Source of the DNA: an uncultured Acidobacteriaceae bacterium
GTDB lineage: Bacteria > Acidobacteriota > Terriglobia > Terriglobales > Acidobacteriaceae
Direction: 5' to 3'
DNA length: 64,000 nt
NCBI GenBank assembly: GCA_963729555.1
Contig: CAVSOH010000010.1
Location: 1,860 to 65,859 of the forward strand
Shown here: piece by piece, positions 26,350 through 38,394 of the stretch
Layout: every line of letters starts with the position of its first letter
Position numbering within the stretch: position 1 is the stretch's first letter
Notes under the pieces: model-generated
Told to the model about the DNA's origin: nothing
What the model saw: the letters and a program-made list of their open reading frames with translations, nothing else
Database searches by the model: none
Program-made: the position numbers and the translations under genes

Positions 26350-26964
26350 TTACAGCCAGCCCTTTGCCCGCGCAATCCTCGCAGCATCGACACGATTCGC
26401 AGCCCCCAACTTCGCAATCGCCTCAGAAAGGTAGTTCCTCACTGTGCCTTCCGACAGATGCAACTCCGTGGCAATCTCCGTGCTGCTCTTACCATCGCCT
26501 GCTCGTTGCAGAATCTGCCGTTCGCGATCGCTCAACGGATCAGCCTCCGCGCTCCATGCCTCGGCAGCCAGCGCCGGATCGACCACGCGAAGTCCCTGAT
26601 GTACACGTCGAACCGCATCCGCCAACTCGGCGGCCGGCCTATCCTTCAGCAGATACCCGCGCGCACCCGCATCCATCGCACGCCGCAAATATCCAGGCCG
26701 CGCAAACGTCGTCAGAATAATCGTCCGCACCTCAGGATGACTCGTCTTCAACGCAGCCGCCAACTCCAGTCCCGTCATCTTAGGCATCTCAATGTCGGTC
26801 ACAAGAACATCAGGCGAGCAACTAGCCACCGCATCCAGCGCCGCCCGCCCATTGGCAGCGCGAGCGACAACGCATATGTCCGCCTCCAGATCCAGCAACG
26901 CTGCCAGCGCCCCCAGCACCATTCCCTGATCTTCCGCAATCACAACCCGTATCTCAACCATCAT
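26350..26964 (-). CDS. NarL/DesR-like response regulator
   Basis: IAEDQ, VTDIEMP, LTTFARPGYL, LLKD, LuxR HTH LSEGTVRNYLS. Confidence 0.93.
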   Translation of the reverse strand: MMVEIRVVIAEDQGMVLGALAALLDLEADICVVARAANGRAALDAVASCSPDVLVTDIEMPKMTGLELAAALKTSHPEVRTIILTTFARPGYLRRAMDAGARGYLLKDRPAAELADAVRRVHQGLRVVDPALAAEAWSAEADPLSDRERQILQRAGDGKSSTEIATELHLSEGTVRNYLSEAIAKLGAANRVDAARIARAKGWL

Positions 26965-28112
26965 TGCACCATACCAGTAGTCGAAGATGCCCGAACCGGA
27001 AGTTCCACCAGCAACGTAGTTCCATGTTCATTGCTGATGGAGAAGCGCCCACCCAGCGATTGAACTCTCTCTCGCATCCCGCGCAAACCATTGCCCTCCT
27101 GCTTGATCGTGTTAGGACCATCGTCCTCCACCAGCAACGAGTGGTAACGATCCTCCGTCATAGCAAAGCGCATCCTGCACTGGGTCGCATGAGCATGGCG
27201 AACAATATTGGTAACAGCCTCACGCAGCGCCAGGCACAGCACCGTCTCCTCCTCTGCCGTCAGCTTCGGCACCGGCGACTCGCAGGCCAGCGCCACACCC
27301 GCACTCTGCAGCGTATTCCGGGCCATCTCCACCTCAGCCGCGAGCCCCTGCGACCGATACCCTCCAATCGCCTCGCGCACCTCTTTCAGCGCGGTCCTCG
27401 CAGTCTTCTCCACCTCGCCGATCTCCCGCGCCGCACGCTCCGGATCGCGCTCCAACAGTCTTCCCGCCAGCTCCGACTTCAACACGATCACCGATAGCGT
27501 ATGCCCCAGCACATCATGCAGATCACGCGCAATCCGTTCGCGCTCAGCCAGTGCCGCCAACTGCTCAATCTGATCCTGCGCCATTCTCAACTTGTACTGC
27601 GACCGCTTTTGCAGCGCGATGAAGATGTTGCTCGTCCCGACTACAACCGTGAGGAACAAAGGCACGACAACCGTAATCGGATTGAGATGCATCAACAGGC
27701 CTTGAATCGCGATTCCCAAGCACTGCGCCACCATGACCGCGACCACCGTCGGTACAGAAGCCACAGCAAACGGAAGAAACGCCGCGCTATAAACAAAGAA
27801 GGTCGACGCGCCGGAATTGACCGGAATCGAAACTAAGCCCAGTACGTAGAAGGCGCCCACCAGAACATATCGCCACTTCACCGAACGCGTCTCCATGTAG
27901 CCGACGTAGATCGCCAGGAAGATCGCATAGAACGCCACACATATCAGCCAGTACCGCAGCTGGTGGCGCAGAATCGGATCTATAAAGTAGAACACCGAAT
28001 ACGCAAGCCAGATGTAGCCCGTGCCGCCGTGGTTGCCTATATTCGGACTCTCGCACACTAGTTGTTCTTTATCGCTCATGGCTTCCCCGAAAGTGTATCG
28101 CGCATCAGGCAT
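26961..28112 (-). CDS. DesK-like membrane sensor histidine kinase (HisKA_3)
   Basis: About five TM helices; ERERIARDLHDVLGHTLS; EAVTNIVRHA; GNGLRGMRER. Alternative start at 28079. Confidence 0.92.
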   Translation of the reverse strand: MPDARYTFGEAMSDKEQLVCESPNIGNHGGTGYIWLAYSVFYFIDPILRHQLRYWLICVAFYAIFLAIYVGYMETRSVKWRYVLVGAFYVLGLVSIPVNSGASTFFVYSAAFLPFAVASVPTVVAVMVAQCLGIAIQGLLMHLNPITVVVPLFLTVVVGTSNIFIALQKRSQYKLRMAQDQIEQLAALAERERIARDLHDVLGHTLSVIVLKSELAGRLLERDPERAAREIGEVEKTARTALKEVREAIGGYRSQGLAAEVEMARNTLQSAGVALACESPVPKLTAEEETVLCLALREAVTNIVRHAHATQCRMRFAMTEDRYHSLLVEDDGPNTIKQEGNGLRGMRERVQSLGGRFSISNEHGTTLLVELPVRASSTTGMVQ

Positions 28113-28908
28113 TCTGCTGCGCGCGGTTGAAGATCAGCCAACTCGTCCCCAGCATCACCATCGTGAACCCCGCCAGACCAAACCAATGGCTCGCCGCCGA
28201 ACTCTGATTTGCATACCCGAAGACGCCAAGCATCAACTGTGCCAGATGATACGTCGGCAGAGCAGGCGCAATCCGCTGCAGCCAGTGCGGCAGATACTGA
28301 ATCGGCATCCACAGCCCACTCATAAACGACATGGGCAGATAGATCAAATTCACAATGCCCGGCGCAGCATTCGCCGGTACAAGCAGAGCCAGCAGAAAGC
28401 CCATGCTCGCAAACGAAATAGATCCAACGACGCTCAGACCAAACATCTTCACTAACTCAACACCGGTCACGGAAACCCCACCCATCGTGACCGCAAGCAC
28501 CGTCAAGGCCGTAACAATAATCAGCCCAAAGACAATAGCGCCCATGCACTTCGCGAAAAGATAAGCCTGCGGAGGCATAGGGCTGGCGCGCTTCACCTCA
28601 AGCCAACCCGCAGCCCGCTCTCCCGCCAAACCCACCCCAATGCCAAACAGGGCCGCACCGATCAAACCAAAGCACGCATATCCGCCCAACAAATATCGCG
28701 CCATGTGAATTCCATTGCTATTCGTGCCACGATTGCTCACGCCAAACAGCAGATAAAACATGATGGGAAACCCGATAACCGCAAGCGAAAACGAACGGTT
28801 GCGCGCCAGCTTCAGACACTCGTACTTCGTCTCTTTAGCGAATATCCGCAAGCCGCGAGCGAGGCTGCCATCCAAAACTGTTTGATTAGGAAGAGCTGTA
28901 GTCGACAT
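28105..28908 (-). CDS. ABC-2 type transporter permease (YvfS-like)
   Basis: Six TM helices; ERAAGWLEVKRASP; LPMSFMSGLWMP...LPTYH. Confidence 0.88.
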   Translation of the reverse strand: MSTTALPNQTVLDGSLARGLRIFAKETKYECLKLARNRSFSLAVIGFPIMFYLLFGVSNRGTNSNGIHMARYLLGGYACFGLIGAALFGIGVGLAGERAAGWLEVKRASPMPPQAYLFAKCMGAIVFGLIIVTALTVLAVTMGGVSVTGVELVKMFGLSVVGSISFASMGFLLALLVPANAAPGIVNLIYLPMSFMSGLWMPIQYLPHWLQRIAPALPTYHLAQLMLGVFGYANQSSAASHWFGLAGFTMVMLGTSWLIFNRAQQNA

Positions 28909-28983
28909 GATGATTCTCCATGAAGTCCTGGTTGAAAGGGCACGACTTTAGTCGCGCCGTAAATGCTGTCGTTGTCCGCGGCT

Positions 28984-29946
28984 TCAGCCGCTGAGGGAAT
29001 CTCCCCGCGACGAGGTCAATTCAAGGAAGGCATCTTCCAGCGCAGGACTCGCAATCTCAAGATGGCTCAGCGTCTCATCGCGCAATAGCATCTCGCGCAC
29101 CACCGCCTCGGCCTCGACCGTCGTGACGACCGTAATATCGCGATCCTGCACCACGTTGGTCACGCTATCGAGCCCACGCAGAAACTCCGCCGCCAGCCAC
29201 GTACGGCAGCGAATCTTCCGCCCCGCACTCACACTCTTGATCTCGGCAGGCGTACCCTCGCTGACGATCTTCCCCTTGTTGAGCACGACAATCCGATGCG
29301 CCAAAGCATCGGCCTCTTCCAGATAATGCGTCGTCAGCAGCACCGTCTTGCCGCGGTTCGCCAGCGTACGTATCTGCTGCCAAAGACCGCGCCGTGCCTC
29401 AATATCCATCCCCACAGTCGGCTCATCCAGAAACACAAGATCCGGGTCCCCACACAGAGCCAGTCCGAACAACACGCGCTGCTTCTGCCCACCGCTCAAC
29501 GCGCTGAACATCTTTCCTTCAATCCCCTCAAGCTGCGCAATCGTTACCACCTCCGCCATCGAGAGCGGATTCGGGTAATAACTCCGAAACAAATCCAGAT
29601 GCTCACGAACCCGCAGCGTCTCCGGAATCCGCGCGACCTGCAGCATCGCGCCCACTCGCAGCCGTGTCCCCGGCGTCTGCGGATCGCCGCCAAACACCCG
29701 CGCCGTTCCGGTAGTCGGAGCAATCAACCCGAGCAGCAGACGCACCGCCGTCGACTTGCCCGCGCCATTCGGCCCCAGCAGCGCCACGACCTCGCCCGGC
29801 CGCAGCGCAAGGTTCAACCCATCCAGTGCCAGCGTATCGCCATAACGCTTCGTCACGCCGGTCAACGTAGCAACCGCCTGTTGCGGCTGTATCGCCGAAG
29901 CATATCGTTCAAACTCCGTCTCTCGCATCACTGCAGTAGCGGACAT
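28984..29946 (-). CDS. ABC transporter ATP-binding protein (YvfR-like)
   Basis: GPNGAGKS, LSGGQKQR, FLDEPT, TTHYLEEAD. Confidence 0.93.
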   Translation of the reverse strand: MSATAVMRETEFERYASAIQPQQAVATLTGVTKRYGDTLALDGLNLALRPGEVVALLGPNGAGKSTAVRLLLGLIAPTTGTARVFGGDPQTPGTRLRVGAMLQVARIPETLRVREHLDLFRSYYPNPLSMAEVVTIAQLEGIEGKMFSALSGGQKQRVLFGLALCGDPDLVFLDEPTVGMDIEARRGLWQQIRTLANRGKTVLLTTHYLEEADALAHRIVVLNKGKIVSEGTPAEIKSVSAGRKIRCRTWLAAEFLRGLDSVTNVVQDRDITVVTTVEAEAVVREMLLRDETLSHLEIASPALEDAFLELTSSRGDSLSG

Positions 29947-33886: not shown

Positions 33887-35539
33887 ATGGCCGCCGCCGA
33901 ACATCCCGCTCCCCCGCAACAAAAGCCCACGCCCCACCAGCGCAAACTAGCCGAGCTGGCCGCCCGCCACACCATCGCCGAAGAAGGCGGAGGCCCCGAG
34001 CGCCGCGCCCGCGAATCCAAATCCGGCAAGCTCTCCGCACGCGAGCGCATCGACCTCCTCCTCGACGAGGGCACCTTCGAAGAAACCGACAAGTTCGTAA
34101 CCCACCGAGCGACCGACTTCGGCATGGCCGACCAGCGAGTCCCCGGCGACGGCTTTATCACCGGACACGGCCGCATCCAGGGCCGCGTCGTCTTCGTCTT
34201 CGCGCAGGACTTCACCGTCTTCGGCGGCTCCCTCTCCGAGTCCAACGCCGCCAAGATCGTCAAGATCATGGACACCGCCCTCCGCGTCGGCGCCCCCGTC
34301 ATCGGCCTCAACGACTCCGGCGGCGCCCGCATCCAGGAAGGCGTCGTCTCCCTCGCCGGCTACACCGACATCTTCCTCCGCAACACCCTCTCCAGCGGAG
34401 TCATCCCGCAAATCTCCGCCATCCTCGGCCCCTGCGCCGGCGGAGCCGTCTACTCCCCCGCCATCACCGACTTCACCCTCATGACCGAAAAGACGAGCTA
34501 CATGTTCGTCACCGGCCCCGACGTCATCAAGACCGTCCTCCACGAAGAAGTCATCAAAGACGCCCTCGGCGGAGCCGCCACCCACAATGAGATCTCCGGC
34601 GTAGCCCACTTCATGGCCCACGACGACCGCGAGTGCCTCGCCACCATCCGCGAGCTCATCTCCTTCCTTCCCTCCAACAACCTCGACGACCCACCCCGCC
34701 GCGCCACCACCGACGATCCCGCCCGCGCCGACGCCGCCCTCGAGACCATCATTCCCGACGAATCCAACCAACCCTACGACATGGTCGAGGTCATCACGAA
34801 GATCGTCGACGAAGGCTACCTCTTCCAAATCCACGAGCACTTCGCCCGCAACCTCGTCGTCGGCTTCGCCCGCATGAACGGCCGCCCCGTAGGCATCGTC
34901 GCCAACCAGCCAGCCGTCCTCGCCGGAGTCCTCGACATCAACGCCTCCGTCAAAGGCGCCCGCTTCGTCCGCTTCTGCGACGCCTTCAACATCCCGCTCA
35001 TCACCTTCGAAGACGTCCCCGGCTTCATGCCCGGCACCCAGCAGGAGCACGGCGGCATCATCCGCCACGGAGCCAAACTCCTCTACGCCTTCGCCGAAGC
35101 CACCGTCCCCAAGCTCACCGTCATCACCCGCAAAGCCTACGGCGGAGCCTACTGCGTCATGAGCAGCAAGCACCTCCGCACCGACGTCAACCTGGCTTGG
35201 CCCACCGCCGAAATCGCCGTCATGGGCCCCGAAGGCGCCGTCAACATCGTCTACAAGCGCGAGTTCGACGCCACCCTCCGCCGCGCCGAAGCCGTAATGC
35301 CACAAGGCGTCTCCCTAACCGAAGAACAAAAACTAGAAATCCTCGCCGAGATCCGCGCCGAAAAAGTAGAAGAGTTCCGCGAGCGCTTCGCCAACCCCTA
35401 CGTAGCCGCCGAGCGAGGCTACATCGACGCCGTCATCCGCCCCAGCGAAACCCGCCGCCGCCTAAACACCGCCCTCGACATGCTAGCCACCAAGCGCGAA
35501 AAGAACCCCCCAAAGAAACACGGCAACATCCCGCTGTAG
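33887..35539 (+). CDS. pccB: Acyl-CoA carboxylase carboxyltransferase (beta) subunit, propionyl-CoA carboxylase-like
   Basis: [62 protein letters not shown]. Confidence 0.92.
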
Positions 35540-35628
35540 GACCTCTATCAAGAACAACATCACCTTCAACCACCACCTGCACCATCACCATGATGCGTCA
35601 TCCATCACCTAAACCGTCCCCATGATGT

Positions 35629-35684
35629 GTCATCCTGAGCGACGGCGAAGCCGAGTCGAAGGACCTGCGGTTGCCGTTGCCGTT
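35629..35684 (+). repeat. REP-like repeat family A, variant copy
   Basis: GTCATCCTGAGCGACGGCGAAGCCGAGTCGAAGGACCTGCGGTTGCCGTTGCCGTT. Confidence 0.7.
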
Positions 35685-35797
35685 ACTTTTCGCGACCGAA
35701 GGCCAAGCGCAAACAGTTTCCACCTGCCTGAATCTTGTGCATGCCAAAGGCCGCCGGTCCAGATTCTCCGGCGGCTCACTTGGATGCGAAAGTCTAG

Positions 35798-36088
35798 TTA
35801 CTGTATGCGGACGGTGGTGCGGATCTGGAACGTCGAGCTGTTTGCGAGAACGTAGTGGCCGTCAACCATACGCCATTCGTAACCCCGCGGTGGTGCACTC
35901 AGATGGCTTTGGTGATAATCGACTTTATCGCCGCGATCCCAGTCTTCGTGTTTGATCGATGCACCTTTCTTCCAGTCGTTGTGCTCGACGTACGTGTGGT
36001 TGTCGTGGTGGTCTTGGGAGAGAGCGACGCGACCCATAAGACTTGTAGAAAGGATCGCAAGCGCTAAAACAATATGCAAGTTTTTCAT
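35798..36088 (-). CDS. RcnB family periplasmic protein
   Basis: Signal peptide; WKKG...DY...LSAPPRGYEWRMVDGHYVL. Confidence 0.85.
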   Translation of the reverse strand: MKNLHIVLALAILSTSLMGRVALSQDHHDNHTYVEHNDWKKGASIKHEDWDRGDKVDYHQSHLSAPPRGYEWRMVDGHYVLANSSTFQIRTTVRIQ

Positions 36089-36603
36089 TAAGTACTCCTT
36101 CCTCAGTAGGATGCACGAAAGACACGTCGCGTCGTTCGTATTCTGATTGGATACAGGCATTCGGAACCCACGATGTATTGCGAAGCTTCGGACTTGAATT
36201 CGGCATTGGCTTTGACTCCTGAATCTCGTTTATCGGGAACTTCAGTTTCTCAGTTCGTGCAAAGGTCTGTTGCTACCGCAAACTGACGCAAGCGCGGTTT
36301 TCAGGACGTACTGTCTATGCAAAGGGACCGATAGAAGTGCAAAGCGGCGCCAGCATCAACACAACGAACGCGGCTATCCCGTAAGTACGTAAAGCACTCG
36401 GGGCCATAGAAGAGAGCGATGGACCAGGGCCGATTTCAACGCCGGTAAATATATAATGTTGCCAGTACGCGCGCTGCAAATGAAGCTCTCACCTGCCGGA
36501 ATAAAAAACCAGGAAACTGCGGACCAATAATTCCCTTAGAATCGCGGGCCGCAGCTCACGGTCACAGGCAAGTGGAGGTGGCCCTTCACGACTGAGACGG
36601 CGT

Positions 36604-38316
36604 ATGAGCGAACAACCTGCCGCTTTTGACCGCGTAACCCTTCGGCGATTCGTCCGCGCAATCAAGGACTTGTTCACGTCCGAAGTGCGCTGGAAAGCGC
36701 GGGGCCTTTTCGCATTACTCATCGCCTTCGCTTTGGCTGTGAATGGCCTGAACGTCCTCAACAGCTTTGTCGGCCGCGACTTCTTTACGGCGATCGCACA
36801 CCGCGACCAGGCCGGATTCGTCCGGGAAGCGATTTTCTTCGTCTCCGTACTCGCCGCAACCACCGTGGTAGCAGTTTTTTACCGATTTACCGAGGAACGG
36901 CTTGGGCTATTCTGGCGGGTATGGCTGACGGAACGAATCATCCATAAATACCTCGCGGATCGCACTTATCTTTACCTCAAGCAGTCCGCCGCAATTGAAA
37001 ATCCTGACCAGCGGATCGCCGAAGAAGTTCGCGTCTTCACGGCCACTACTCTCTCTTTCACGCTTATGTTCATGAATGGAGTACTCGCCGTCCTATCGTT
37101 CTCGGGTGTGCTCTGGACAATCAGCCCGCTTCTATTCGGTGTCGCGATCGGCTACGCCATCATCGGCACTGTGGTCGCGGTCTATTTGGGTCGGCCCCTG
37201 ATCGGGCTGAATTACCGCCAGTCGGACCAGGAGGCCGCATTCCGCTCGGAGTTGATCCACGTACGCGAGAATGGCGAGTCAATCGCGCTCTTGCGGCGTG
37301 AGGGGCGTTTAACTACCCGACTTCTTCGACGCATCGAAGCCGTTGCGGACAACTTTCGAAGGATCACCTCGGTAAACCGCAACCTCAGCTTCTTCACGAC
37401 CGGTTACAACAATCTCATCCAGCTCATCCCCGCACTGATCGTGGCACCGCTATTCATTCGCGGGAAAGTGGAATTCGGTGTCATCACGCAATCGGCGGCC
37501 GCCTTCGCCCAACTGCTCGGCGCATTCTCGTTGGTCGTTAATCAATTTCAAGCCATCTCGACGTTTGCGGCTGTCACTGCCCGGCTCAGCTCGCTGGTGG
37601 GAGCCGTCGACGACCGTCCGTCACCAACCGGCACTACGGTCGAAGTCGTTGGAGCGGACGACCGCATTGCTTACGACGGCCTGACACTGTTCTCGCCCGA
37701 CGGAGGCCGAGAGGTCCTCAAAAACCTGACCGCGGAGATACGCCGCGGGACAAATGTGTTGGTCGTCGGACCGAACGAAGGCGCTAGAATCGCTCTGTTT
37801 CGAGCTACTGCCAGCATCTGGCCGGCTGTGGAAGGGACGCTCGTCCGCCCGAAGCTCGACGACATTTTCTTCCTGCCCCAGCGACCATATCTGCCACCAG
37901 GAACACTTCGGGATGTTCTGGTTCGCAGCGGTCAGGAACAGGTCATCACCGACGGTCAGATCACGAGCGCCTTGCAAGATATAGGTCTAAGCTCCATTCA
38001 GGAGCGGGTTGGTGGATTGGACACGGAACGCGATTGGTCGACCCTCCTTTCGTTGGGGCAGCAACATCTGCTTGCTTTAACGCGGCTGATCTTCGCACGA
38101 CCCGCCTTCGCCCTGCTTGATCGAGTAACTGAGCCCCTCAAACCAGCACAGTTACGAGAGATATTGCGGCGTTTCGATGAAAACTCCATTACCTACATAA
38201 CTTTCGCCAACGATGCCGAATCGGTTGAGTCGTACGACGCAGTGCTGGAAATCGACAACGATGGCGGATGGACCTGGAGTCCCACCGGCCGCGTTGCCAC
38301 TGCGGCATCGATGTAA
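36604..38316 (+). CDS. ABCD/YddA-type ABC transporter (TMD+NBD fusion) with degenerate ATPase domain
   Basis: TMD motifs NPDQRIAEEVR, FRSELIHVRENGESIALLR; NBD retains FLPQRPYLPPGTLRD but Walker A is GPNEGARI and Walker B is LLDRV. Confidence 0.88.
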   Translation: MSEQPAAFDRVTLRRFVRAIKDLFTSEVRWKARGLFALLIAFALAVNGLNVLNSFVGRDFFTAIAHRDQAGFVREAIFFVSVLAATTVVAVFYRFTEERLGLFWRVWLTERIIHKYLADRTYLYLKQSAAIENPDQRIAEEVRVFTATTLSFTLMFMNGVLAVLSFSGVLWTISPLLFGVAIGYAIIGTVVAVYLGRPLIGLNYRQSDQEAAFRSELIHVRENGESIALLRREGRLTTRLLRRIEAVADNFRRITSVNRNLSFFTTGYNNLIQLIPALIVAPLFIRGKVEFGVITQSAAAFAQLLGAFSLVVNQFQAISTFAAVTARLSSLVGAVDDRPSPTGTTVEVVGADDRIAYDGLTLFSPDGGREVLKNLTAEIRRGTNVLVVGPNEGARIALFRATASIWPAVEGTLVRPKLDDIFFLPQRPYLPPGTLRDVLVRSGQEQVITDGQITSALQDIGLSSIQERVGGLDTERDWSTLLSLGQQHLLALTRLIFARPAFALLDRVTEPLKPAQLREILRRFDENSITYITFANDAESVESYDAVLEIDNDGGWTWSPTGRVATAASM

Positions 38317-38394
38317 CCGGCGACGCGTCGAGCTTCCGATTGCTCGGCGAGGCTCATTGACCGCTCCAGCTAACTAGCCTTGCGCCCGTGAAGT

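What the first reader, a model, noticed from the sequence alone, without database searches (positions are those of the whole stretch)
36604..38316. ABCD/YddA-type transporter with an ATPase-dead nucleotide-binding domain
Seen: all four key motifs are altered while the ORF stays intact. Walker A is GPNEGARI (no GKS/T; 37768-37791); the signature is LSLGQQH; Walker B is LLDRV (catalytic Glu to Arg; 38113-38127); the H-loop position reads ITYITFAND (no His). Neighbouring NBD scaffold (SIWP, FLPQRPYLPPGTLRD) is conserved. Established: these residues are essential for ATP hydrolysis, and SbmA/BacA are ABC-derived TMDs that lost the NBD and use proton motive force. Inference: either an intermediate toward PMF-driven SbmA-like transport or the silent half of a heterodimer whose partner lies elsewhere.
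Basis: partly seen in the sequence, partly recalled or inferred. Interest (0 to 1): 0.68.

Follow-up and report, generated by a model that had tools for sequence, protein, structure and literature searches.

The report
ABC-fold transporter with dead ATPase domain
A soil acidobacterium carries an intact membrane transporter of the YddA/Rv1819c (ABCD-like) type whose ATP-burning domain has lost its catalytic residues; the same loss is kept under selection in a large clade found in several phyla, often beside beta-1,2-glucan enzymes, so the clade probably moves large sugars without using ATP.

Summary
ORF 36604-38316 (+, 570 aa) is a full-length YddA/Rv1819c/ABCD-type half-transporter. Its nucleotide-binding domain (NBD) keeps the fold but not the chemistry: Walker A is GPNEGARIA, Walker B is LLDR, and the H-loop His is Asn.

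This is not decay:
- Every homologue above about 43% identity is degenerate in the same way. That covers 120 close homologues, about 45 clusters at 50% identity and about 95 loci from Acidobacteriota, a Gemmataceae bin, Methylococcaceae and Chromatiaceae.
- Relatives at or below 40% identity are canonical (GPSGxGKSS / LDEAT / SVGHRP).
- dN/dS of the NBD-like domain is about 0.2, against 0.10-0.20 for the membrane domain.
- A tree built from the membrane domain alone gives one degenerate clade nested among canonical proteins (bootstrap 70/100).

- Only 2 of SbmA's 6 proton-relay glutamates are present, as in canonical relatives. Coupling helices are predicted to remain.
- About 100 loci show no active partner next door. 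Where two paralogues co-occur, both are dead.

New lead: 28 of 100 loci place the gene beside beta-1,2-glucan enzymes, often as an operon. These are a GH94 protein like the C-terminal part of Cgs/NdvB, a GH144-like glucanase, and a six-hairpin/CBM32 protein.

Best reading: an ATP-independent homodimeric carrier for large hydrophilic glycans. This is a new variant of a known kind.

The parts
36604..38316 (+). CDS of 570 aa: full-length YddA/Rv1819c/ABCD-type half-transporter with a pseudo-ATPase domain
   Evidence: ORF. Pfam ABC_membrane_2 at 1e-37. PDB hits to ABCD1 and Rv1819c. The AF2 model matches Rv1819c (6tqe) at TM 0.84.
36604..37623 (+). Membrane domain (residues 1-340): an N-terminal helix plus six long TM helices
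   Evidence: Secondary structure of the model. Pfam match to residues 21-282. dN/dS 0.10-0.20.
36964..36984 (+). Predicted coupling helix 1 (residues 121-127, between TM2 and TM3)
   Evidence: Short helix H121-127 in the model. SbmA lacks such helices (PMC8442886).
37273..37293 (+). Predicted coupling helix 2 (residues 224-230, between TM4 and TM5). The canonical F-Y-x-G here reads L-L-x-R in this clade.
   Evidence: H224-230. Clade-specific substitutions at residues 229, 230 and 232.
37636..38316 (+). NBD-like pseudo-ATPase domain (residues 345-570)
   Evidence: pLDDT 81-92 with an NBD fold. ABC_tran is below its cut-off. dN/dS 0.17-0.51, about 0.2 for well-diverged pairs.
37768..37794 (+). 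Degenerate Walker A, GPNEGARIA (canonical GPSGxGKSS)
   Evidence: The form GPNE[AG]AR.A is conserved in 120 close homologues.
37873..37890 (+). Q-loop, LPQRPY. Intact here; LPERPY in more distant clade members.
38047..38070 (+). Signature, LSLGQQHL (family canonical LSLGEQQR). The invariant Arg is lost.
   Evidence: Arg is 100% conserved in canonical relatives; the clade has Leu, Ala or Gln.
38107..38127 (+). Walker B, FALLDRV. The catalytic Glu is replaced by Arg. 'LDR' is the clade hallmark.
38197..38217 (+). H-loop position, ITFANDA. His is replaced by Asn here and by Glu or Asp in most of the clade.
36409..36603 (+). Conserved upstream leader or promoter region that travels with the gene
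   Evidence: DNA similarity to L001, L007, L014, L018 and L003 starts here and ends about 37 bp after the stop. There is no Rfam match and no significant fold.

Best explanation
The gene encodes a member of a large, apparently single-origin clade of YddA/Rv1819c-type half-transporters. In this clade the nucleotide-binding domain survives as a folded pseudo-enzyme that cannot hydrolyse ATP. In this acidobacterial branch it almost certainly cannot bind ATP either.

I infer three things about how it works:
- It acts as a homodimer with no ATPase-competent partner.
- It carries large hydrophilic solutes through the big cavity typical of Rv1819c-like proteins, by ATP-independent alternating access (facilitated diffusion).
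- The dead NBD pair, still attached through coupling helices, serves as the cytoplasmic gate or scaffold.

Gene neighbourhoods across the clade point to beta-1,2-gluco-oligosaccharides or cyclic beta-1,2-glucans as cargo. Net uptake could then be driven by metabolic trapping. Cytoplasmic GH144-like endo-beta-1,2-glucanase and GH94 phosphorylase would convert the imported glucan to glucose-1-phosphate.

Shown: motif loss, its conservation, purifying selection, retained fold, a single clade, and the genomic linkage.
Inferred: the homodimer, ATP independence of transport, the direction of transport, the substrate, and trapping as the driving force.

The window's own copy is solitary, so the substrate call for this particular gene is the weakest link.
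For: Dead catalytic set: residue-level alignment to ABCD1 and Rv1819c; ABC_tran at 19.5 bits, below the cut-off of 25.

Conservation of the replacement residues:
- 120 homologues at 71-94% identity all carry GPNE[AG]AR.A, LDR and FAED.
- about 45 representatives at 50% clustering are degenerate, while the more distant ones are canonical.
- about 95 loci from several phyla follow the same rule. The switch to canonical motifs comes at about 40% identity.

Selection: dN/dS of the NBD-like part is about 0.2, against 0.10-0.20 for the membrane domain.

Fold: AF2 model with pLDDT 79 (NBD 81-92), best match Rv1819c at TM 0.84, both coupling helices predicted.

Single origin: in an NJ tree of the membrane domain alone, the degenerate proteins form one clade (70/100 bootstraps). 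Basal members still have the Walker A Lys, which suggests stepwise loss.

No active partner: none in the window and none beside about 100 homologues. L098 has two clade members and both are dead.

Glucan link:
- 28 of 100 loci have an adjacent GH94, GH144 or six-hairpin/CBM32 gene. Only about 55 loci have 3 kb or more of flank on a given side.
- L004, L012, L032 and L034 (60-78% identical to the query) have GH94, GH144 and the transporter in the same direction. In L004 the gaps are about 22 bp.
- The GH144-like protein matches XcSGL (8xul) at 5e-115 and endo-beta-1,2-glucanase 5gzh.
- These enzymes show no evident signal peptide at their N-termini by inspection.

Transcription: soil metatranscriptome contigs 90-97% identical cover the CDS, including the NBD part.
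Against: - No biochemical data exist for any clade member.
- The window's gene and its closest relatives (79-95% identity, Acidobacteriaceae MAGs) are solitary, with no glucan genes within 10 kb. The substrate inference is transferred from 45-78% identical relatives.
- I could not run a control on how often canonical YddA-like genes sit next to such enzymes. Only three canonical loci were recovered.
- Conservation of Arg at the Walker B Glu position, and of Glu and Arg in the P-loop, hints at a specific new role for the site that pure scaffolding does not explain.
- A clade-specific conserved Glu (E97) could take part in proton coupling.
- Whole genomes could not be searched for a distant partner.
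- A syntenic pseudogene (L020) shows the gene is dispensable in some lineages.
- The tree is NJ only, with moderate support.
Confidence: 0.45

Rival explanations
1. Proton-motive-force-driven symporter. Like SbmA/BacA, the membrane domain would couple substrate uptake to H+ flow, with the dead NBD a passive remnant.
For: - SbmA shows that this membrane-domain fold can run on a proton gradient (PMC8442886, PMC13316013).
- Pfam SbmA_BacA matches residues 68-330 at 6e-16.
- E140 and E210 align with SbmA E193 and E276.
- A clade-specific conserved Glu, E97, lies near the cytoplasmic end of TM2.
Against: - Four of SbmA's six ladder glutamates are absent (L150, N203, R221, T320). The two present are equally present in ATP-competent relatives.
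- The clade is not on the SbmA branch.
- Coupling helices and the NBD fold are retained, unlike in SLiPTs.
Confidence: 0.2
2. Silent half of a heterodimer. The protein would pair with an ATPase-competent YddA-type half-transporter encoded elsewhere in the genome, giving one consensus site and one degenerate site.
For: - In this protein and its close relatives the loss pattern is the one seen in the degenerate subunit of heterodimeric exporters (review PMC7756269). Walker A, Walker B and the H-loop are lost, while the Q-loop and most of the signature (LSLGEQQ) are kept.
- Whole genomes could not be searched.
Against: - No partner lies within 8-10 kb in about 100 loci. Bacterial heterodimeric half-transporters are normally adjacent, which is general knowledge.
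- L098 pairs two dead copies.
- Across the clade the signature second Gly and the Q-loop Gln are often lost as well: LSVAEQQL in 37 of 121, LPERPY in most distant members.
- The signature Arg that is invariant in canonical proteins is lost throughout.
- Degenerate subunits of known heterodimers still bind ATP through an intact Walker A, which is not so here.
Confidence: 0.1
3. Ligand-gated carrier or channel. The remodelled site would bind a nucleotide or another anion without hydrolysing it. Candidates for that role are the conserved Glu and Arg of the P-loop together with the Arg of Walker B. Binding would control dimerisation of the NBD-like domains and so gate the pore.
For: - The replacement residues are themselves conserved. 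LDR occurs in most of the clade, and E392 and R395 in the acidobacterial branch. Conservation of this kind suggests the residues are used rather than merely lost.
- Basal clade members keep an intact Walker A GxxGxGK[ST] while lacking the catalytic Glu and His (K-- class). That combination is compatible with ATP binding without hydrolysis.
Against: - In the query branch the P-loop glycines and the Mg-binding Ser/Thr are gone, so nucleotide binding is unlikely.
- No ligand can be inferred from sequence.
- The conserved charges could equally form an internal salt bridge that fills the empty site.
Confidence: 0.15
4. No transport role, or a gene on its way out: a relic kept by chance, or a membrane scaffold or sensor.
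For: - L020 is a decayed copy in a locus syntenic with L001.
- L014 and L018 carry frameshifts.
- The gene has no fixed neighbourhood in Acidobacteriaceae.
Against: - dN/dS is about 0.1-0.2 over both domains, and hundreds of ORFs are intact across phyla.
- Cavity-forming membrane-domain motifs are conserved.
- The gene lies in operons with enzymes.
- Transcripts of close relatives are found in soils.
- The L014 and L018 indels are one to four single bases in MAG assemblies and could be assembly or sequencing errors.
Confidence: 0.1

Closest known systems
Rv1819c / mycobacterial BacA (PDB 6tqe), the ATP-driven importer of cobalamin, bleomycin and peptides
   Same: - Best structural match (TM 0.84) and a strong sequence match (7e-61 over residues 30-560).
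- Same half-transporter layout: an ABC_membrane_2 membrane domain followed by a C-terminal NBD.
- Same family motifs: NPDQRI, DW..LS.GEQQ and a C-terminal GGW.
   Different: - Rv1819c has a canonical Walker A, catalytic Glu and H-loop His, and its transport needs ATP (PMC10960864, abstract).
- Here all three are replaced.
- Sequence identity is only about 26%.
E. coli YddA and rhizobial BclA (canonical YddA/BclA clade)
   Same: Same Pfam family and architecture. The degenerate clade nests inside this radiation in the membrane-domain tree.
   Different: - YddA and BclA have working ATPase motifs. YddA reads GYSGAGKTT / LSSGEKQR / FLDE. BclA transport needs ATP hydrolysis (PMC12003926).
- E. coli yddA lies next to a TonB-dependent receptor and a protease, not next to glucan enzymes.
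SbmA/BacA (SLiPT family), proton-driven peptide importers
   Same: - The membrane domain is homologous (Pfam SbmA_BacA 6e-16, PDB 7p34 at 6e-10).
- Both appear to be YddA-derived proteins that gave up ATP hydrolysis (PMC13316013).
   Different: - SbmA deleted the NBD and the coupling helices and gained a six-glutamate ladder and TM0.
- This clade kept the NBD fold and, in the model, the coupling helices. It has only 2 of the 6 ladder positions.
- It is an independent lineage.
Degenerate subunits of heterodimeric type IV ABC exporters (TM287/288, TAP1/2, BmrCD, CydDC)
   Same: The same kind of motif erosion, at the Walker B Glu and the H-loop His (review PMC7756269).
   Different: - Those proteins keep an ATP-binding Walker A.
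- They sit next to, and pair with, an active partner.
- Only one of their two sites is dead.
- Here Walker A is destroyed and no partner is found.
Cgt/NdvA/ChvA, the ATP-driven exporter of cyclic beta-1,2-glucan
   Same: A type IV ABC fold and a genomic or functional link to beta-1,2-glucan. Its existence is cited in PMC11842490.
   Different: - Cgt is a canonical ATPase of the MsbA-like branch, not an ABC_membrane_2 protein, and it works with a synthase.
- Here the neighbours are degradative or phosphorolytic enzymes and no glycosyltransferase is present.

Membership tests
ABCD/YddA/Rv1819c-type ABC half-transporters (PF06472 + PF00005) | ABC_membrane_2 membrane domain | tested here: met
   PF06472 at 1.1e-37, 130 bits, residues 21-282.
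ABCD/YddA/Rv1819c-type ABC half-transporters (PF06472 + PF00005) | Overall type IV fold with a C-terminal NBD fold | tested here: met
   The AF2 model matches 6tqe at TM 0.84 and ABCD1/3/4 at TM 0.7-0.83 over about 570-610 columns.
ABCD/YddA/Rv1819c-type ABC half-transporters (PF06472 + PF00005) | Catalytically competent NBD: Walker A GxxGxGK[ST], Walker B hhhhDE, H-loop His | tested here: not met
   GPNEGARIA, LLDR and FAND. ABC_tran scores 19.5 bits, below its cut-off of 25.
ABCD/YddA/Rv1819c-type ABC half-transporters (PF06472 + PF00005) | ATP-dependent transport | not testable with these tools
   Needs an ATPase assay and proteoliposome transport assays.
SLiPT (SbmA/BacA) secondary transporters | No NBD | tested here: not met
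   A folded NBD-like domain of about 225 residues is present.
SLiPT (SbmA/BacA) secondary transporters | Glutamate ladder (SbmA E193, E203, E269, E276, E287, E378; PMC13316013) | tested here: not met
   Only E140 (=E193) and E210 (=E276) are present. The other positions are L150, N203, R221 and T320. Canonical relatives show the same pattern.
SLiPT (SbmA/BacA) secondary transporters | No coupling helices between TM2/3 and TM4/5 | tested here: not met
   The model has short helices at residues 121-127 and 224-230. This is a prediction only.
SLiPT (SbmA/BacA) secondary transporters | Proton-gradient-driven transport | not testable with these tools
   Needs proteoliposome or CCCP experiments.
Heterodimeric ABC exporters with one degenerate site | A partner half-transporter with consensus motifs, normally encoded next door | tested here: not met
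   None in the window and none in about 100 homologous loci, except a different arrangement in L101. Whole genomes were not searchable.
Heterodimeric ABC exporters with one degenerate site | The degenerate subunit still binds ATP (intact Walker A) and supplies a consensus signature | tested here: not met
   Walker A is destroyed. The signature Arg is lost throughout the clade, and the second Gly is lost in 37 of 121 close homologues.
Beta-1,2-glucan utilisation loci (SGL/SOGP gene clusters) | Co-location with GH144 endo-beta-1,2-glucanase and/or GH94 beta-1,2-glucan phosphorylase genes | tested here: inconclusive
   Met for 28 of 100 homologous loci, including relatives 60-78% identical. Not met for the window's own copy or for its relatives of 79% identity and above.

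The most novel reading that the evidence does not exclude
A widespread bacterial family of full-length ABC-exporter-fold proteins has permanently given up ATP. It did so independently of SbmA/BacA, and it kept its nucleotide-binding domains as pseudo-enzymes that gate or scaffold the pore. This family would be an unrecognised inner-membrane carrier for beta-1,2-glucans (linear oligomers or cyclic glucans), with uptake driven by cytoplasmic phosphorolysis rather than by ATP or protons.
Probability: 0.3. Interest if true: 0.78.

Novelty: new variant of a known kind. Interest (0 to 1): 0.62.

Why it matters
ABC transporters are defined by ATP-driven NBD dimerisation. SbmA/BacA showed that the membrane domain alone can work without ATP once the NBD is deleted.

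A large, selected clade that keeps the whole architecture but kills the chemistry is a second, independent natural experiment. It asks what an NBD does when it cannot burn ATP, and it does so in the form of a stepwise series. Basal members still have the Walker A lysine; derived members have lost everything.

It also matters for annotation. Pipelines call these proteins 'ATP-binding/permease', 'SbmA/BacA-like' or 'B12/bleomycin transporter' interchangeably.

If the glucan link holds, the clade would be a candidate membrane step in beta-1,2-glucan turnover in soil and freshwater bacteria. The enzyme papers I checked describe that transport only through SBP-dependent ABC importers and the Cgt exporter (PMC11842490).

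Tried and rejected
- Riboswitch upstream, for example cobalamin, given that Rv1819c imports B12. Rfam found nothing at gathering threshold in the window, and only two chance-level hits in 35500-36700. The conserved leader does not fold better than shuffles (z = -1.1).
- Sigma-70 promoter and terminator scan. Nothing useful near the gene.
- Synteny with the window's neighbours (DinB, PEGA protein, carboxyltransferase, RcnB-like, MscS-like, cupin, M28 peptidase). None is shared with any of 20 genome loci. DNA similarity stops at the gene borders. The window's context therefore says nothing about function.
- Second ABC ATPase in the window (28984-29946, minus strand). It belongs to an ABC-2 permease and histidine-kinase system and is unrelated.
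- Fused two-half relatives (P0160, P0166, P0172). Their Walker A, signature and Walker B motifs are canonical in both halves, and an H-loop His was matched only in the first half. None resembles the degenerate clade, so they do not provide a fused active/dead pair.
- A --keeplength MAFFT alignment mis-aligned the signature and Walker B columns. I redid it with L-INS-i on excised NBDs.
- A first bootstrap with SbmA as outgroup was corrupted by saturated distances. I repeated it without SbmA.
- Apparent GH144-transporter fusion in L092. Rejected, because the two ORFs are in different frames.
- Literature. 'Degenerate' does not occur in the three SbmA/BacA/BclA papers searched. The one beta-1,2-glucan paper searched for 'transporter' mentions none of this type, and PMC12102758 does not use the word at all. 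These are full-text term searches, not complete readings.
Full report
**1. What is at the coordinates**

One search lists one intact ORF at 36604..38316 on the plus strand (570 aa, ATG start). Pfam gives ABC_membrane_2 (1.1e-37, residues 21-282) and a weaker overlapping SbmA_BacA match (6e-16). ABC_tran scores only 19.5 bits, below its gathering score of 25.

NCBIfam's best hit is the peroxisomal ABCD model TIGR00954, far below its cut-off. Against solved structures the best matches are Arabidopsis ABCD1, M. tuberculosis Rv1819c (7e-61 over residues 30-560), and human ABCD3, ABCD4 and ABCD1.

| Motif | This protein | Canonical relatives | Change |
|---|---|---|---|
| Walker A | GPNEGARIA (389-397; nt 37768-37794) | GPNGSGKSS | two Gly lost, Lys>Arg, Ser/Thr>Ile |
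| Walker B | LLDR (504-507) | LLDE/Q | catalytic Glu>Arg |
| H-loop | TFAND | SISHR | His>Asn |
| Signature | LSLGQQHL | LSLGEQQR | invariant Arg lost, E>Q, Q>H |

The Q-loop LPQRPY and the Walker B Asp are intact.

**2. Decay or design**

The 120 best database homologues (71-94% identity, nearly all 565-575 aa) all carry the same replacements:
- GPNE[AG]AR.A at Walker A.
- LSLGEQQL or LSVAEQQL at the signature.
- F-A-M/L-L-D-R-V at Walker B.
- ITYITFAED at the H-loop.

Codon alignments of the window gene with nine genomic homologues give the following (Nei-Gojobori):
- Membrane domain: dN/dS 0.10-0.20.
- NBD-like domain: dN/dS 0.17-0.51, about 0.2 wherever dS is large enough to be reliable.

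The domain is a little more relaxed than the membrane part, but it is clearly under purifying selection. It fails on both counts.

**3. How far the pattern extends**

An exhaustive HMMER search of 1.84 billion cluster representatives, with L-INS-i realignment of the excised NBDs, shows a sharp divide.
- Representatives down to roughly 40-45% identity lack the H-loop His. They almost always lack the Walker B Glu, and 'LDR' is the commonest form. They usually have a broken Walker A and have lost the signature Arg.
- More distant representatives are uniformly canonical: GPSGxGKSS / LPQ.PY / LSLGEQQR / LDEAT / SVGHRP.

Genome and metagenome loci follow the same rule in about 95 loci. These include Acidobacteriaceae, Terriglobales and Bryobacteraceae MAGs, a 'Gemmataceae' bin, and Methylococcaceae. 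Cluster members also carry Chromatiaceae and Methylococcus labels. Samples come from soil, freshwater, sludge and sediment.

An NJ tree built from the membrane domain alone, so that NBD divergence cannot drive it, puts all degenerate proteins in one clade nested among canonical YddA-like proteins. Strict monophyly appears in 70 of 100 bootstraps. In 18 more replicates only the canonical sister P0143 intrudes.

Basal members keep GxxGxGK[ST] but lack the Glu and His. The derived part, which includes this gene, has lost everything. That is the picture of a stepwise, single-origin loss. The caveat is that this is NJ only, with moderate support.

**4. Structure**

An AlphaFold2 model built on a 28-sequence alignment has mean pLDDT 79, with the NBD-like domain at 81-92. 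It shows six long TM helices and short helices at 121-127 and 224-230, in the positions of the two coupling helices. The C-terminal domain has the alpha/beta pattern of an NBD.

Foldseek's best hit is Rv1819c (6tqe, TM 0.84), followed by ABCD1, ABCD3 and ABCD4. So the fold and the TMD-NBD connection are retained and only the chemistry is gone.

Clade-specific changes also affect coupling helix 2, where canonical F-Y-x-G becomes L-L-x-R. One conserved Glu, E97, is also clade-specific.

**5.

(a) Intermediate toward SbmA. The recent SbmA work defines SLiPTs by three things: loss of the NBD and coupling helices, gain of TM0, and a ladder of six glutamates, E193, E203, E269, E276, E287 and E378 (PMC13316013; PMC8442886).

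I aligned E. coli SbmA and YddA with 30 degenerate and 19 canonical relatives. The query has only E140 and E210, the equivalents of E193 and E276. Nearly all canonical relatives have these too. The other four positions are L, N, R and T. The clade is not on the SbmA branch.

It is therefore not an intermediate toward SbmA but a parallel loss of ATPase. Proton coupling by some other route is not excluded.

(b) Silent half of a heterodimer.
- The window has no second ABC_membrane_2 protein. Its only other ABC ATPase belongs to an ABC-2 system.
- Among about 100 loci with up to 10 kb of flank, only two have a second homologue.
- In L098 both copies belong to the clade and both are dead.
- In L101 the main protein is canonical and lies outside the clade.
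- Across the clade the signature second Gly, the signature Arg and the Q-loop Gln are frequently lost. That is not expected if the subunit must complete a partner's active site.
- I could not search whole genomes, so a distant partner is unlikely rather than excluded.

**6. A lead from gene neighbourhoods**

The window's own neighbours are unrelated to glycans: a carboxyltransferase, an RcnB-like protein, an MscS-like channel, a cupin and an M28 peptidase. None of them recurs next to any homologue.

Even 90-93% identical DNA matches stop about 195 bp upstream and about 37 bp downstream of the CDS. The gene is thus a solitary unit with its own conserved leader.

Clustering the neighbours of all loci reveals recurrent partners elsewhere in the clade:
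- A protein of about 1,300 aa with GH94 supersandwich and catalytic domains. [quoted passage not shown]
- A PF10091 protein that matches the Xanthomonas beta-1,2-glucanase XcSGL (8xul, 5e-115) and the GH144 endo-beta-1,2-glucanase 5gzh (PMC12102758).
- A protein of about 1,085 aa with a CBM32/discoidin domain and a six-hairpin glycosidase-like region.

At least one of these is adjacent in 28 of 100 loci, although only about 55 loci have 3 kb or more of flank on a given side.

In L004, L012, L032 and L034 (60-78% identical to the query) the order is GH94, GH144, transporter, all in the same direction. In L004 the gaps are about 22 bp, which indicates an operon. The GH144-like and GH94 proteins show no signal peptide at their N-termini by inspection, as do most of the six-hairpin proteins. 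If so, the glucan would have to reach the cytoplasm.

**7. Proposed mechanism**

Rv1819c-type proteins are described as carrying bulky water-soluble molecules such as cobalamin, bleomycin and Bac7 (PMC10960864 abstract). I propose that this clade is a homodimeric, ATP-independent carrier for large hydrophilic glycans, most likely beta-1,2-gluco-oligosaccharides or cyclic beta-1,2-glucans. Net uptake would be pulled by cytoplasmic endo-glucanase and phosphorylase (metabolic trapping).

This would explain why the ATPase could be lost without loss of function. The dead NBDs would remain as the cytoplasmic gate or scaffold.

The conserved Arg at the catalytic-Glu position, and the Glu and Arg in the P-loop, may fill the former nucleotide pocket or bind another ligand. 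That part is speculation.

For the window's own solitary copy the substrate is an extrapolation from 45-78% identical relatives.

**8. Other evidence**

- Soil metatranscriptome contigs 90-97% identical cover the CDS, including the NBD-like part. Close relatives therefore appear to be transcribed, although DNA carry-over cannot be excluded.
- One relative, L020, is a decayed copy (44 gap openings, 80% identity) inside a locus whose flanks are 90-95% identical to L001. The gene can therefore be lost.
- L014 and L018 carry one and four single-base indels. These may be assembly or sequencing errors in the MAGs.

**9. Novelty and verdict**

'Degenerate' does not occur in any of the three SbmA/BacA/BclA papers I searched by term. 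The beta-1,2-glucan enzyme papers I searched for 'transporter' mention none of this type. Annotation pipelines name clade members inconsistently.

The parts are known: the ABC type IV fold, degenerate NBD motifs, and ATP-independent relatives. The combination appears undescribed. It has three elements:
- A full-length half-transporter with every catalytic motif lost.
- Conservation of that state as a large clade.
- A link to beta-1,2-glucan enzymes.

I rate it a new variant of a known kind, interest 0.62.

Noticed in passing
window 36409-36603: About 195 bp upstream of the CDS is conserved with five relatives whose flanks are otherwise unrelated. The last 100 bp or so are nearly invariant (…AAACTGCGGACCTATAAT…GGTCACAGGCAAGTGGAGGTGACC…). 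There is no Rfam family and no significant fold. It could be a promoter or operator, or an undescribed leader.
   Followed up: partly
window 36409-38353 versus L001-L020: The gene has no conserved neighbours, even in MAGs with 90-93% identical DNA. Similarity ends at the gene borders, which suggests the gene is relocated or exchanged as a single-gene unit among Acidobacteriaceae. I did not look for repeats or mobile-element genes at the borders.
   Followed up: partly
L020 9996-11565: A decayed pseudogene copy (44 gap openings, about 80% identity, only short ORFs) sits in a locus whose flanks are 90-95% identical to L001, which has an intact copy.
   Followed up: yes
L014 10001-11690; L018 10001-11708: The closest relatives by protein identity (94-95%) are interrupted by one and four single-base indels respectively. 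These could be assembly or sequencing errors in the MAGs, or very young pseudogenes.
   Followed up: partly
L098 2538-9761: Two paralogues of the degenerate clade flank a six-hairpin/CBM32 gene, all on one strand. They may form a heterodimer of two dead subunits.
   Followed up: partly
L101 455-5714: A canonical YddA-like gene lies convergent to a very divergent paralogue (26% identity) with its own degenerate motifs (GNAFIGSK / LLQEAL). This may be an independent case of an active/dead pair.
   Followed up: no
L045 9867-13121 and 17 other loci: A recurrent protein of about 1,085 aa has a CBM32/discoidin domain and a weak six-hairpin glycosidase signal. It has no close solved relative. Some copies have a signal peptide and most do not. 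It may be an uncharacterised glucan-active enzyme family.
   Followed up: partly
window 35798-36160 (-): An RcnB-like (PF11776) small periplasmic protein is transcribed divergently from the transporter. No link to the transporter was found in other loci.
   Followed up: partly
window 26961-29946 (-): An ABC-2 type exporter (NBD plus permease) is followed by a HisKA_3 histidine kinase. This is a typical three-gene module and is unrelated to the finding.
   Followed up: yes
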